From IMG/VR virus record IMGVR_UViG_2558860170_000005: DNA of 33,534 bases; one strand, given 5' to 3'. Below are positions 1,826-3,844 of this stretch, in pieces (position 1 is the stretch's first letter; each line of letters begins with the position of its first letter). The notes under the pieces were generated by a model that did no database searches, was not told the DNA's origin, and worked only from the letters and a program-made list of their open reading frames with translations. The position numbers and the translations under genes are program-made. The DNA is from a virus. Taxonomy: Duplodnaviria > Heunggongvirae > Uroviricota > Caudoviricetes.

Positions 1826-2265
1826 TGGAGCACCTCAAAAACACCATCATACACTAAATCAGTAAGTTGGCAGCATCACCCTTCTGTGGTTATATTTATT
1901 TTCACCCAGCCAGTCAGTCTGGATATGGGCCAGTAGCAGTAGCGGGTGTGATAAATGGGGCCGTTAATGCCGTAAAAAGTAAGGGATTTGGCTCTGTACC
2001 TCGGTTCTGTTGTCTCAGGGCGTGCATCAGTCCACCGGATGCTGAGCCCCCCTTCAAACCGTGTGTCGGGTATGATGATGTCGTAGGGGCCAGCAACGGA
2101 ATATTCACCTGGCAGCGCATTCCTTACCCAGGCCAGGAAATCACTCTTAGTGTCAAAACGGATAACATCTTCAGGCAGAAAAGCACACCCAAAGCCGAAT
2201 GCGCCGGGTATCGCCAGACGGCTGAGGTGTACTGGCAATAGCGGACACTACCATTTGTTCTTTTT

Positions 2266-3084
2266 TTAAGCAGCCATCTGATGATATTTTTCCCTGAAGG
2301 CTGCCGGGGAGATATTCCCCAGACGAGAGTGACGACGCTGACGATTGTAGAAAATCTCAATGTATTCCCGTATTACTGAGATGGCTTCATCCCGGTTATT
2401 AAAACGATAGTGGCTCAGGCTCTCATTTTTCAGCGTTCCCCAGAAGCTTTCCATCGGAGCGTTGTCGTAACAGTTACCTTTACGCGACATTGATGTTTTC
2501 AGACCAGACTGCTCCTGTATGACCCGGTAATCGTATGCGCAGTACTGTGAACCTCGATCAGAGTGGTGGATTAGCCCGGCAGGTGGGCGCTGGCTCCTGA
2601 GCGCCATAAACAGGGCTTTACCTGTCAGCTCTTTTGTCATGCGCTCTCCCATGGCGTAGCCGACAATTTCGCACGTATAAACATCTTTGATGCCAGCGAG
2701 GTACAACCATCCCTCCTGTGTGGCAACATACGTCAGGTCCGCCACCCAGACCTGATTTGGTGCTGTAGGAGCGAACGTCTGGTTCAGCAGATTTGGCGCA
2801 ACTGGCAGATTGTGGTTCGAGTTCGTAGTCGCTCTGAACTTGCGTTTCTGCTTACAGCGTAGCCTTAGCTCCTTACGAAGACGTGCCAGTCGGTCACGAC
2901 CAACGATGATGCCATTCTCTGCCAGCTCCGTCTGGAGCCGCCGGGTTCCATATGTTTCGCGAGTGCGGATATGTGCCACCTTAATCTCCAGTTTTAGCCG
3001 CTCATCACTTTGTTTTCTGTCTGAGGGTTCATGCTGTACCCAGTTGTAATAACCGCTCCTGGATACACCAAATACCTGACACAT
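2266..3084 (-). CDS. IS600 OrfB (transposase catalytic frame)
   Basis: 272-aa ORF with DDE-type integrase core (…HSDRGSQY…), IS3-family OrfB. Confidence 0.95.
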   Translation of the reverse strand: MCQVFGVSRSGYYNWVQHEPSDRKQSDERLKLEIKVAHIRTRETYGTRRLQTELAENGIIVGRDRLARLRKELRLRCKQKRKFRATTNSNHNLPVAPNLLNQTFAPTAPNQVWVADLTYVATQEGWLYLAGIKDVYTCEIVGYAMGERMTKELTGKALFMALRSQRPPAGLIHHSDRGSQYCAYDYRVIQEQSGLKTSMSRKGNCYDNAPMESFWGTLKNESLSHYRFNNRDEAISVIREYIEIFYNRQRRHSRLGNISPAAFREKYHQMAA

Positions 3085-3119
3085 CGCTTCAATGGGAAAT
3101 TGTTGTCGCCATTGTTCGA

Positions 3120-3422
3120 TTAACGCGTATTTTTCAGCGACTCCTGTGCAAAATACGCTGTTGCTTTTTTTAATATATCTCGCTCAAGGCGAGCTTCATT
3201 TAACGCCTTACGCAGTTGCAGAATTTCAGATTCCAGTTCAGCCACCGTGCGGGAACCAGGAGTACCGAGCCCTTTTCTGGCGGCGGTAACCCATTGTCCT
3301 AAAGTGCCTTCAGGAAGAGATAATCGGGAAGCGCCTTCACTGATCGAAAGTTGATTTTCAGGAACCGTTCTGACAGCTTCGGCTTTGAACTCTTTAGAGT
3401 AACGTTGGGTTTTTCTGCTCAT
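3120..3422 (-). CDS. IS600 OrfA
   Basis: 100-aa MSRKTQRYSKEFKAEAVRTV… HTH protein, recognised as IS600 OrfA. Confidence 0.95.
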   Translation of the reverse strand: MSRKTQRYSKEFKAEAVRTVPENQLSISEGASRLSLPEGTLGQWVTAARKGLGTPGSRTVAELESEILQLRKALNEARLERDILKKATAYFAQESLKNTR

Positions 3423-3487
3423 TATTAGCTCCTTCTGATGCCATTCTATTTCAGGAAGGAGTGTCCGTTAAACTCAGGCTACCTCAT

Positions 3488-3844
3488 TCTGGCGAGTCGT
3501 TTTTTGGAGTGTTCGCGGGCTTTTTCCTCCGTCATCTGAATAATCAGCATATCAGCAGGATCGCAAATCACGTTGTAAATCACCCAGCCGTCAATCAGGC
3601 CGATAGTCTTGCCGGTTCGTGCCGGGCCAACAAATATCACTGCGTCGTATTCACGCGAGGCCAGGCAGTTCATCGGCTCAATAACATACGGTGCCACCAG
3701 CGGATCCCACGGGACTGAGTTCCCTGCCCCCATGGGCACCCGCATATACTGAGCAACGGCATCAGCAACCCGCATTCGTCTCGGTGCGCGAAGGATATAA
3801 CCTGAATCGGTTCGTGCTGCCTTTGCGGTTTCCTGATTCAGCAT
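3488..3844 (-). pseudogene. Terminase large subunit (GpA family), N-terminal ~119 codons only
   Basis: …AVIFVGPARTGKTIGLIDGWVIY… Walker-A segment typical of lambda-type gpA; start overlaps Nu1 stop; frame runs into the IS600 end at 3487. Confidence 0.6.

What the first reader, a model, noticed from the sequence alone, without database searches (positions are those of the whole stretch)
2223..3844. IS600 copy 1 marks a deletion that removed the morphogenesis module
The large terminase is cut after about 119 codons at one IS600 end, and the other end abuts the 3' part of a tail-fibre-like gene. The flanking trinucleotides differ (GGC vs TTC), unlike the four IS600 copies with perfect 3-bp duplications. 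This is the signature of an IS-mediated adjacent deletion of portal/capsid/tail genes.
Basis: partly seen in the sequence, partly recalled or inferred. Interest (0 to 1): 0.55.

Follow-up and report, generated by a model that had tools for sequence, protein, structure and literature searches.

The report
IS600-bridged deletion in Shigella prophage
An insertion sequence in a Shigella sonnei prophage sits exactly where about 19 kb of virus head and tail genes have been lost, which is an ordinary, well-known way that insertion sequences erode prophages in Shigella.

Summary
The window is Shigella sonnei: bases 1-13844 are 100% identical to strain 53G. IS600 copy 1 (2223-3486) cuts a GpA-type large terminase after codon 119 of 700. 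Its other end abuts nt 599 of a 1269-nt tail-fibre gene. Its flanks (GGC/TTC) are not a duplication, whereas four other copies have perfect 3-bp duplications.

The window is collinear, in one orientation, with a prophage at the same chromosomal site (intR/ttcA to sitABCD) in E. coli FDAARGOS_944. There the two flanks lie 18,956 bp apart, separated by portal, capsid, tail, J, Lom and the start of the tail-fibre gene. None of 5,426 complete E. coli genomes has the two flanks adjacent. So a deletion is supported.

New detail: another S. sonnei chromosome (CP061367.1) keeps an earlier state. It has the same terminase::IS600 joint, then a 172-nt inverted remnant of a second IS600, then the tail-fibre gene from nt 64. 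The window's joint is therefore probably the product of nested deletions, the last removing only 706 bp. This favours IS600-end-mediated deletion over recombination between two direct copies, without proving it.

The kind of event is already known, so interest is low.

The parts
201..824 (-). DUF4376 tail-fibre-associated gene (207 aa), the last prophage gene before sitD
   Evidence: Pfam DUF4376 E=2.9e-15 and PHROG 1141 E=2e-87. sitDCBA follow directly beyond the window's left end in 53G (L003).
775..1112 (-). Tail-fibre gene, 3' terminal fragment (about nt 932-1269 of 1269)
   Evidence: Joined to 1881-2222 with one copy of the IS1 duplication removed, it gives 671 nt that are 99.4% identical to nt 599-1269 of the CFSAN029787 tail-fibre gene.
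1113..1880 (-). IS1 copy, a simple insertion inside the tail-fibre remnant
   Evidence: 768 bp with a 9-bp duplication CTTCTGTGG on both sides. It is absent from S. sonnei CP061367.1 (L021) and from IMG/VR contig L032.
1881..2222 (-). Tail-fibre gene, internal fragment (nt 599-940); its upstream end is the deletion joint
   Evidence: 99.1-99.7% identical to eight EIEC/E. coli genomes (98.8% and 91.3% in two more), where it is annotated 'prophage tail fiber N-terminal domain-containing protein'. PHROG 2636 E=2e-90.
2223..3486 (-). IS600 copy 1, complete, with transposase genes on the minus strand, bridging the deletion; no target-site duplication
   Evidence: 1264 bp and 100% identical to the copy at 27651-28914. 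About 99.2-99.5% identical over the listed hits to RefSeq-annotated IS600. Flanks are GGC/TTC.
3487..3844 (-). Large terminase (GpA type), codons 1-119 of 700
   Evidence: 852 bases (3487-4338) are 100% identical to 12 E. coli genomes, annotated 'phage terminase large subunit family protein'. Residues 1-119 are identical to the 700-aa protein. Pfam GpA_ATPase is partial.
3844..4338 (-). DUF1441 small-terminase-like gene, intact
   Evidence: Pfam DUF1441 E=2.7e-41 and PHROG 141 'terminase small subunit' E=7e-74. In 10 of 10 sampled genomes it is followed by a 700-aa terminase and a portal gene.

Best explanation
IS600 copy 1 sits at the joint of a deletion that removed the late (head and tail) region of a lambdoid prophage. 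The prophage is integrated at the Rac site (intR/ttcA) next to sitABCD in Shigella sonnei.

**Shown**
- The terminase gene stops at codon 119 at the orfA-proximal end of the IS.
- The tail-fibre gene resumes at nt 599 at the other end.
- Both flanks keep the order and orientation they have in a largely complete relative, where 18,956 bp lie between them.
- A second S. sonnei genome preserves a less-deleted state.

**Inferred history**
1. One IS600 (X) lay in the terminase gene. A second, inverted IS600 (Y) lay at nt 63/64 of the tail-fibre gene.
2. The orfB-proximal terminus of X became joined to the interior of Y, with loss of everything between. This is state A, about 18 kb lost.
3. A further 706 bp (the 172-nt Y remnant plus 534 nt of tail fibre) was lost from the same X terminus. 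This gives the window's joint, state B.
4. IS1 then inserted into the remnant.

**Inferred mechanism**
The joints are an exact IS terminus fused to non-homologous DNA, and X and Y are inverted. The most likely mechanism is therefore transposase-mediated one-ended attack of the IS600 end on nearby DNA in the same molecule (adjacent deletion), not RecA recombination between direct copies. The result is a prophage that cannot make particles, with sitABCD fixed in the chromosome.
For: **Collinearity and size of the gap**
- The window runs collinear, in one orientation, from intR to the sitD junction of FDAARGOS_944. Window 4837-3487 matches at 99.1% and 2222-1881 at 96.8%, and the reference holds 18,956 bp between them.
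- That interval is annotated as the rest of the terminase, portal, protease/capsid, tail, tape measure, J, Lom and the tail-fibre 5' end.
- No E. coli genome has the joint.

**State A in S. sonnei CP061367.1 (L021)**
- It is 99.98% identical to 53G through IS600 X.
- It then carries 172 nt equal to IS600 positions 1093-1264 in inverted orientation, then the tail-fibre gene from nt 64, and no IS1.
- State B equals state A minus exactly 706 nt next to the same IS terminus.

**Order of events and parallels**
- L032 has state B without the IS1 in the tail-fibre remnant, so IS1 came last.
- A second IS600 in the window (27651-28914) also lacks a duplication and has a 185-bp adjacent deletion relative to CFSAN029787.
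[quoted passage not shown] A 'sloppy strand transfer' model has been proposed for them (bioRxiv 10.1101/2023.06.07.543989).
Against: - No genome with IS600 as a simple insertion in this terminase (IS + GAA + rest of gene) was found. The ancestral state is therefore inferred.
- For the last step (A to B), a third IS600 inserted in direct orientation followed by RecA recombination would leave the same product.
- Which end of X is the original insertion junction cannot be told. X could first have inserted into Y, with the big deletion then running from the other end.
- The largely complete reference matches the right flank at only 96.8% and has a different tail-fibre 5' allele. In the six EIEC loci inspected (five genomes) the S. 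sonnei-type 5' allele lies behind myovirus-type tail modules. The composition and exact size of the lost module are therefore uncertain.
- The whole 53G chromosome could not be scanned, so relocation of the module is excluded only by the orientation argument.
- The strain phylogeny was not determined, so A preceding B rests on parsimony and on the absence of the IS1.
Confidence: 0.7

Rival explanations
1. Two-copy recombination. A second IS600 inserted, in the same orientation as copy X, at tail-fibre nt 598/599 with a GCC duplication. RecA-dependent recombination between the two direct copies then deleted the interval and one IS copy, leaving a hybrid IS with flanks from two different insertions.
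For: - The product (one intact IS, mismatched flanks, co-oriented flanking DNA) is identical to what is seen.
- IS600 is abundant here, with six copies in 33.5 kb.
- From my own knowledge, IS150-associated rbs deletions in the E. coli long-term evolution experiment were explained this way.
Against: - In state A the only second IS600 seen is inverted and is joined terminus-to-interior, which homologous recombination cannot produce.
- The last step removed only 706 bp, and the other duplication-less IS600 has only a 185-bp deletion. Each would need an extra same-orientation insertion very close by.
- No genome with such an extra copy was found in viral contigs.
Confidence: 0.22
2. Rearrangement rather than loss. 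The terminase stub and the tail-fibre remnant come from two different prophage modules or prophages. They were brought together by IS600-mediated inversion or translocation, and the morphogenesis genes survive elsewhere in the genome.
For: - The terminase flank belongs to a siphovirus-type module, whereas the S. sonnei tail-fibre 5' allele was found only behind myovirus-type tails in the EIEC loci inspected.
- S. sonnei has paralogous full-length terminases of this family (P0010 and P0081, L006).
- Draft contigs join this terminase::IS600 junction to other prophage DNA (L005-L007).
Against: - Both flanks keep the order and orientation of a single prophage at the same locus in FDAARGOS_944. A single inversion would flip one flank.
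- All of the S. sonnei chromosomes read across the IS600 joint show state A or B at this locus; two further chromosomes (L022, L023) have lost it to larger IS1-anchored deletions.
- The paralogous terminases are complete 700-aa genes with their own small-subunit gene, not the missing remainder (L006).
- The draft contigs cross a 1.26-kb repeat and may be assembly chimeras.
Confidence: 0.06
3. No deletion. The terminase stub and the tail-fibre gene were already neighbours in a naturally short, mosaic element, and IS600 simply inserted between them.
For: None found.
Against: - The terminase ORF is cut in mid-domain at codon 119 of 700 and the tail-fibre gene at nt 599 of 1269.
- IS600 has no target duplication.
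- 0 of 5,426 genomes show adjacency.
- In 10 of 10 sampled contexts the terminase is full length and followed by a portal gene.
Confidence: 0.01

Closest known systems
IS-driven prophage and genome decay in Shigella (IS1, IS600, IS911 and IS2 expansion with IS-bridged deletions)
   Same: Several IS families are packed into a prophage: nine elements of IS1, IS600 and an IS911-like type total 11.1 kb of the 33.5-kb window, and a 343-aa DDE_3 transposase ORF, probably IS630, would be an eleventh copy. Genes are cut at IS ends. Strain-to-strain differences are made by further IS-anchored deletions.
   Different: Nothing different in kind. This is one specific locus documented at base-pair level. 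That the general phenomenon is established is from my own knowledge, not tested here.
IS629 (IS3 family) adjacent genomic deletions in E. coli O157, promoted by the IS-excision enhancer IEE
   Same: An IS3-family element is retained at the joint. Deletions of very different sizes start exactly at an IS end (PMC9943667; bioRxiv 10.1101/2023.06.07.543989). Here the sizes are about 18 kb, 706 bp and 185 bp.
   Different: The element here is IS600, not IS629. Whether S. sonnei carries iee was not examined. Transposase dependence is inferred, not shown.
IS1-mediated adjacent (replicative) deletions
   Same: One-ended deletions are anchored at a fixed IS end, giving nested series. The same locus shows IS1-anchored larger deletions in other S. 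sonnei genomes (L022, L023) and an independent IS1-bridged deletion in EIEC O121.
   Different: IS1 and IS600 belong to different families with different chemistry. IS3-family elements move by copy-out-paste-in, so an extra resolution step is needed (bioRxiv 10.1101/2023.06.07.543989).
Rac-type cryptic prophage at ttcA and the 'PAI sit' island
   Same: The integrase is 98.8-100% identical to intR next to ttcA in two EIEC/E. coli genomes. sitABCD lies directly downstream. PAI sit is described as variable in size and orientation (PMC7545054, citing Fisher 2009).
   Different: K-12 Rac itself was not compared. The late region here was of the DUF1441/GpA-terminase type before it was lost.

Membership tests
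IS600 (IS3 family) | Element of about 1.26 kb with TGAGGT... imperfect terminal inverted repeats, and near-identity to annotated IS600 | tested here: met
   1264 bp; the ends are TGAGGTGTACTGGCA... and ...ACTCAGGCTACCTCA. About 99.2-99.5% identical over the listed hits to RefSeq 'IS3-like element IS600 family transposase' loci.
IS600 (IS3 family) | Two consecutive ORFs: orfA (HTH_Tnp_1) and orfB (rve/DDE integrase) | tested here: met
   100-aa and 272-aa ORFs at 3120-3422 and 2266-3084. Precomputed Pfam HTH_Tnp_1 and rve on the identical proteins.
IS600 (IS3 family) | 3-bp target-site duplication after simple insertion | tested here: not met
   Copy 1 has flanks GGC/TTC. Four other copies in the window do have perfect 3-bp duplications. 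The element is still IS600; the missing duplication marks a secondary rearrangement.
GpA-type phage large terminase | N-terminal ATPase domain (PF05876) | tested here: met
   E=4.5e-22, but only profile positions 2-80 of 247 are present. The 119 residues are identical to a 700-aa homologue.
GpA-type phage large terminase | C-terminal nuclease domain (PF20454) and full length of about 700 aa | tested here: not met
   The ORF ends after codon 119 at the IS600 end. Intact homologues carry PF05876 plus PF20454. It is therefore a non-functional fragment.
Prophage tail fibre (PF08400 N-terminal domain plus PHROG 2636 C-terminal part) | C-terminal receptor-side region | tested here: met
   The 222-aa reconstructed fragment matches PHROG 2636 'tail fiber protein' at E=2.3e-90, profile positions 340-567 of 568.
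Prophage tail fibre (PF08400 N-terminal domain plus PHROG 2636 C-terminal part) | N-terminal tail-attachment domain PF08400 | tested here: not met
   No Pfam hit on the window fragment. The intact 422-aa EIEC homologue has PF08400 at residues 1-131. That part is deleted here.
IS-end-mediated adjacent deletion | A single IS at the joint, no duplication, and flanks co-oriented and collinear with an intact relative that holds extra DNA between them | tested here: met
   18,956 bp lie between the flanks in FDAARGOS_944, in the same order and orientation.
IS-end-mediated adjacent deletion | Nested end points anchored at one fixed IS end in related strains | tested here: met
   State A (CP061367.1) and state B (the window) share the terminase::IS600 joint and differ by 706 bp at the other IS end.
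IS-end-mediated adjacent deletion | Joint not explicable by homologous recombination between direct IS copies | tested here: inconclusive
   Met for state A: the second IS600 is inverted and the joint is terminus-to-interior. It cannot be decided for the window's own joint.
IS-end-mediated adjacent deletion | Dependence on IS600 transposase and independence from RecA | not testable with these tools
   This needs a genetic deletion assay.
Rac-site prophage / PAI sit | Integrase of intR type at ttcA on one side and sitABCD on the other | tested here: met
   The window's integrase fragments are 98.8-100% identical to intR adjacent to ttcA. sitDCBA follow the window's left end in 53G. A 311-aa PF01171 (ATP_bind_3) gene, presumably ttcA, lies next to the remnant in S. 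sonnei L023.

The most novel reading that the evidence does not exclude
IS600 in S. sonnei makes serial, one-ended, RecA-independent adjacent deletions in natural populations. Intermediates are still preserved among sequenced strains: state A with an inverted IS600 stump, then state B, then later IS1-anchored losses. This locus would then be a natural, base-pair-resolved record of the poorly understood 'sloppy strand-transfer' deletion pathway of copy-out-paste-in IS3-family elements, possibly without the IEE helper.
Probability: 0.4. Interest if true: 0.3.

Novelty: already known. Interest (0 to 1): 0.15.

Why it matters
This is a clean, fully mapped example of how insertion sequences disarm a prophage in Shigella while keeping a useful cargo, the sitABCD iron/manganese transporter, fixed in the chromosome. 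The series of states across S. sonnei genomes could serve as lineage markers. It could also serve as natural material for asking how IS3-family elements make adjacent deletions. It does not reveal a new kind of element or mechanism.

Tried and rejected
1. **Ancestral simple insertion or a second copy.** I searched viral contigs for IS600 end + GAA + the rest of the terminase, and for an IS600 at tail-fibre nt 598. There were no matches. The positive control, the real terminase::IS600 joint, gave 4 contigs there.
2. **Genome contigs and metagenome contigs.** The same pattern gave nothing, but the positive control was also absent. These collections simply lack S. sonnei-type DNA, so the negatives mean nothing.
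3. **The search for homologous proteins with the 700-aa terminase**, meant to find C-terminal fragments next to IS600. The 120 listed hits were all near-identical full-length (700-aa, one 726-aa) proteins. It only showed that S. sonnei has paralogous intact copies.
4. **Draft contigs joining the terminase::IS600 joint to other prophage DNA** (L005-L007), together with L012 and L024. I set these aside as evidence because they cross or abut 1.26-kb or near-identical repeats and may be assembly chimeras.
5. **CFSAN029787 as the intact reference.** It is at the same locus with the same early region and matches the tail fibre at 99.4%. However, it has a different (myovirus-type) packaging and structural module and lacks the terminase flank. 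It cannot measure the gap.
6. **Literature search for the strain accessions**. This confirmed only that HE616528 is S. sonnei 53G. The lineage of CP061367.1 remains unknown.
7. **Reciprocal inversion between the two duplication-less IS600 copies.** The flanks (GGC/TTC and AAC/ATA) do not pair and the copies are in direct orientation, so I rejected this.

Full report
**Origin and anatomy**

Bases 1-13844 of the window are 100% identical to Shigella sonnei 53G (HE616528.1). One search confirms that this accession is S. sonnei 53G.

Read on the minus strand, the region contains, in order:
- a holin ORF at 6492-6115 (called by position and collinearity with the annotated holin, not scanned), lysozyme and Rz (6115-5154);
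- a DUF1441 small-terminase-like gene (4338-3844);
- the first 119 codons of a GpA-type large terminase (3844-3487);
- IS600 copy 1 (3486-2223);
- an internal tail-fibre fragment (2222-1881);
- an IS1 (1880-1113);
- the tail-fibre 3' end (1112-775);
- a DUF4376 gene (824-201).

In 53G, sitDCBA follow immediately beyond the window's left end.

**Checking the observation**

IS600 copy 1 is 1264 bp, is 100% identical to the copy at 27651-28914, and has intact orfA and orfB. Its flanks are GGC and TTC.

Four other copies have perfect 3-bp duplications (CAC, TAG, GTA, TTG).

The terminase product is identical to a 700-aa E. coli protein for 119 residues, then reads M-R-stop out of the IS end.

With one copy of the IS1 duplication removed, the two tail-fibre pieces equal nt 599-1269 of a 1269-nt EIEC gene at 99.4% identity, that is residues 201-422 of 422.

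**Is it a deletion?**

The whole window is collinear, in one orientation, with a prophage in E. coli FDAARGOS_944 that runs from ttcA/intR to sitD. Window 4837-3487 matches reference positions 39372-40720 at 99.1%, and window 2222-1881 matches 59677-60015 at 96.8%.

In the reference, 18,956 bp separate the two flanks. They are annotated as the rest of the terminase, a small head-tail gene, portal, protease/capsid fusion, tail genes, tape measure, J, Lom and the first roughly 745 nt of the tail-fibre gene.

Three results argue against natural adjacency:
- None of 5,426 complete E. coli genomes has a place covering at least 80% of the stub-IS600-tail-fibre joint.
- In 10 of 10 sampled contexts the identical DUF1441 protein is followed by a 700-aa terminase and a portal gene.
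- Because both flanks keep their order and direction, the topology is that of a deletion, not a single inversion.

**A complication about the lost module**

A second relative at the same locus, EIEC CFSAN029787, shares the early region (85.8-100% identity across the aligned blocks) and the tail fibre (99.4%). Between lysis and tail fibre it has a different, myovirus-type packaging and structural module, and it lacks the DUF1441/GpA flank.

The S. sonnei-type 5' part of the tail-fibre gene lay behind myovirus-type tail genes in all six EIEC loci inspected, from five genomes. FDAARGOS_944's sit-adjacent tail fibre has a different 5' allele.

The S. sonnei ancestor was therefore probably a mosaic of these two types. 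The figure of about 19 kb is an estimate from one relative, not a measurement of the actual ancestor.

**Related S. sonnei genomes give the history**

I looked up the exact DUF4376 and terminase-stub proteins. This returned several chromosomes that are at least 99.98% identical to 53G over the 10.9 kb downstream.

*State A.* CP061367.1 (L021, plus one similar place) is identical to 53G up to the orfB-proximal end of IS600. It then carries 172 nt equal to IS600 positions 1093-1264 in inverted orientation, ending in the IS terminus. The tail-fibre gene follows from nt 64, and there is no IS1.

*State B.* This is the structure in the window, in 53G and in several others. It equals state A minus exactly 706 nt next to the same IS600 terminus.

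*Later events.*
- An IMG/VR contig (L032) has state B without the IS1 in the tail-fibre remnant, so that IS1 came later.
- L023 and L022 show larger deletions anchored at that IS1. One reaches the AAA_24 gene. The other removes the prophage entirely, so that other, non-prophage genes lie upstream of the IS1.
- EIEC O121 has an independent IS1-bridged loss of the late region at the same locus.

**Mechanism**

In state A the two IS600 copies are inverted, and an exact IS terminus is fused to the interior of the other copy. Homologous recombination between IS copies cannot make that joint. An attack by the IS600 end on DNA in the same molecule can.

The next step removed only 706 bp. The other duplication-less IS600 in the window has a 185-bp deletion in a recE-like gene relative to CFSAN029787. 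On the recombination model, each would need an additional same-orientation insertion very close by.

[quoted passage not shown] It offers a 'sloppy strand transfer' model, while noting that copy-out-paste-in chemistry needs an extra resolution step (bioRxiv 10.1101/2023.06.07.543989).

I therefore favour nested, transposase-mediated adjacent deletions (confidence about 0.7 for the whole account). Recombination between two direct copies is the main rival for the last step (about 0.2). Which end of the IS is the original insertion junction cannot be decided. No simple-insertion ancestor was found (with the control).

**Comparison with what is known, and verdict**

This is IS-driven prophage decay in Shigella at the variable 'PAI sit' locus (PMC7545054). 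It is a known kind of event made by known elements.

- The loss was multi-step.
- The joint in the window was made by a small late step.
- Flank mismatch alone is not diagnostic of an adjacent deletion.

Novelty: already known. Interest: low (0.15). The strain series might be a modestly useful natural record of IS3-family adjacent deletion.

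Noticed in passing
window 27651-28914: A second IS600 copy without a target duplication (flanks AAC/ATA). Relative to EIEC CFSAN029787, 185 bp of a recE-like (Exonuc_VIII) gene are missing exactly at this IS. It is 100% identical to copy 1.
   Followed up: partly
window 11418-12185: This IS1 copy has no 9-bp duplication, and about 135 bp are missing at the site relative to FDAARGOS_944. The other two IS1 copies (1113-1880 and 14934-15701) have clean 9-bp duplications.
   Followed up: partly
window 6444-8959: This IS600 copy is itself split by a 1249-bp IS3-family element (6894-8142, duplication GTA, 94% identical to a locus annotated ISEc52; IS911-like by my reading). It is an IS nested inside an IS.
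   Followed up: partly
window 1-33534: IS load is very high. Six IS600, three IS1 and one IS911-like element total 11,140 of 33,534 bases. There is also a 343-aa DDE_3 transposase ORF at 21237-22268, probably IS630. The integrase gene is split by IS600 at 31780-33043.
   Followed up: partly
window 9142-9452: A four-gene tRNA cluster (Gly-tcc, Thr-tgt, Arg-tct and a CAT anticodon called Met, annotated Ile in relatives) survives between the Q-like gene and the lysis cassette (compare).
   Followed up: no
L022 (CP029794.1) and L023 (JANXIY010000004.1), locus coordinates about 8900-9720: These other S. sonnei chromosomes have much larger deletions anchored at the IS1 in the tail-fibre remnant. One runs back to the AAA_24 gene near the integrase end. 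The other removes the prophage entirely, so that other, non-prophage genes lie upstream of the IS1.
   Followed up: partly
L034 (E. coli O121 201805972, NZ_CP119441.1 2082358-2094891): An independent IS1-bridged deletion of the late region of the prophage at the same Rac/sit locus in an EIEC. dicB is joined through IS1 to the 3' end of a tail gene, with an IS66 between DUF4376 and sitD.
   Followed up: no
L005, L006, L007, L012, L024 (draft S. sonnei-like assemblies): In L005-L007 the same terminase-codon-119::IS600 joint is followed by unrelated prophage DNA; L012 carries the same joint at a contig end behind a different prophage's early region. In L024 an intact tail fibre next to sit is preceded by Mu-like baseplate genes. 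These are either real IS600-mediated rearrangements or assembly chimeras across repeats.
   Followed up: partly
L004 (CP044191.1) and L019 (CP032523.1), about 450 bp upstream of the DUF1441 gene: Some S. sonnei chromosomes carry an extra IS21-family element plus another IS600 inserted at about window position 4420, between the lysis genes and the small-terminase gene.
   Followed up: no
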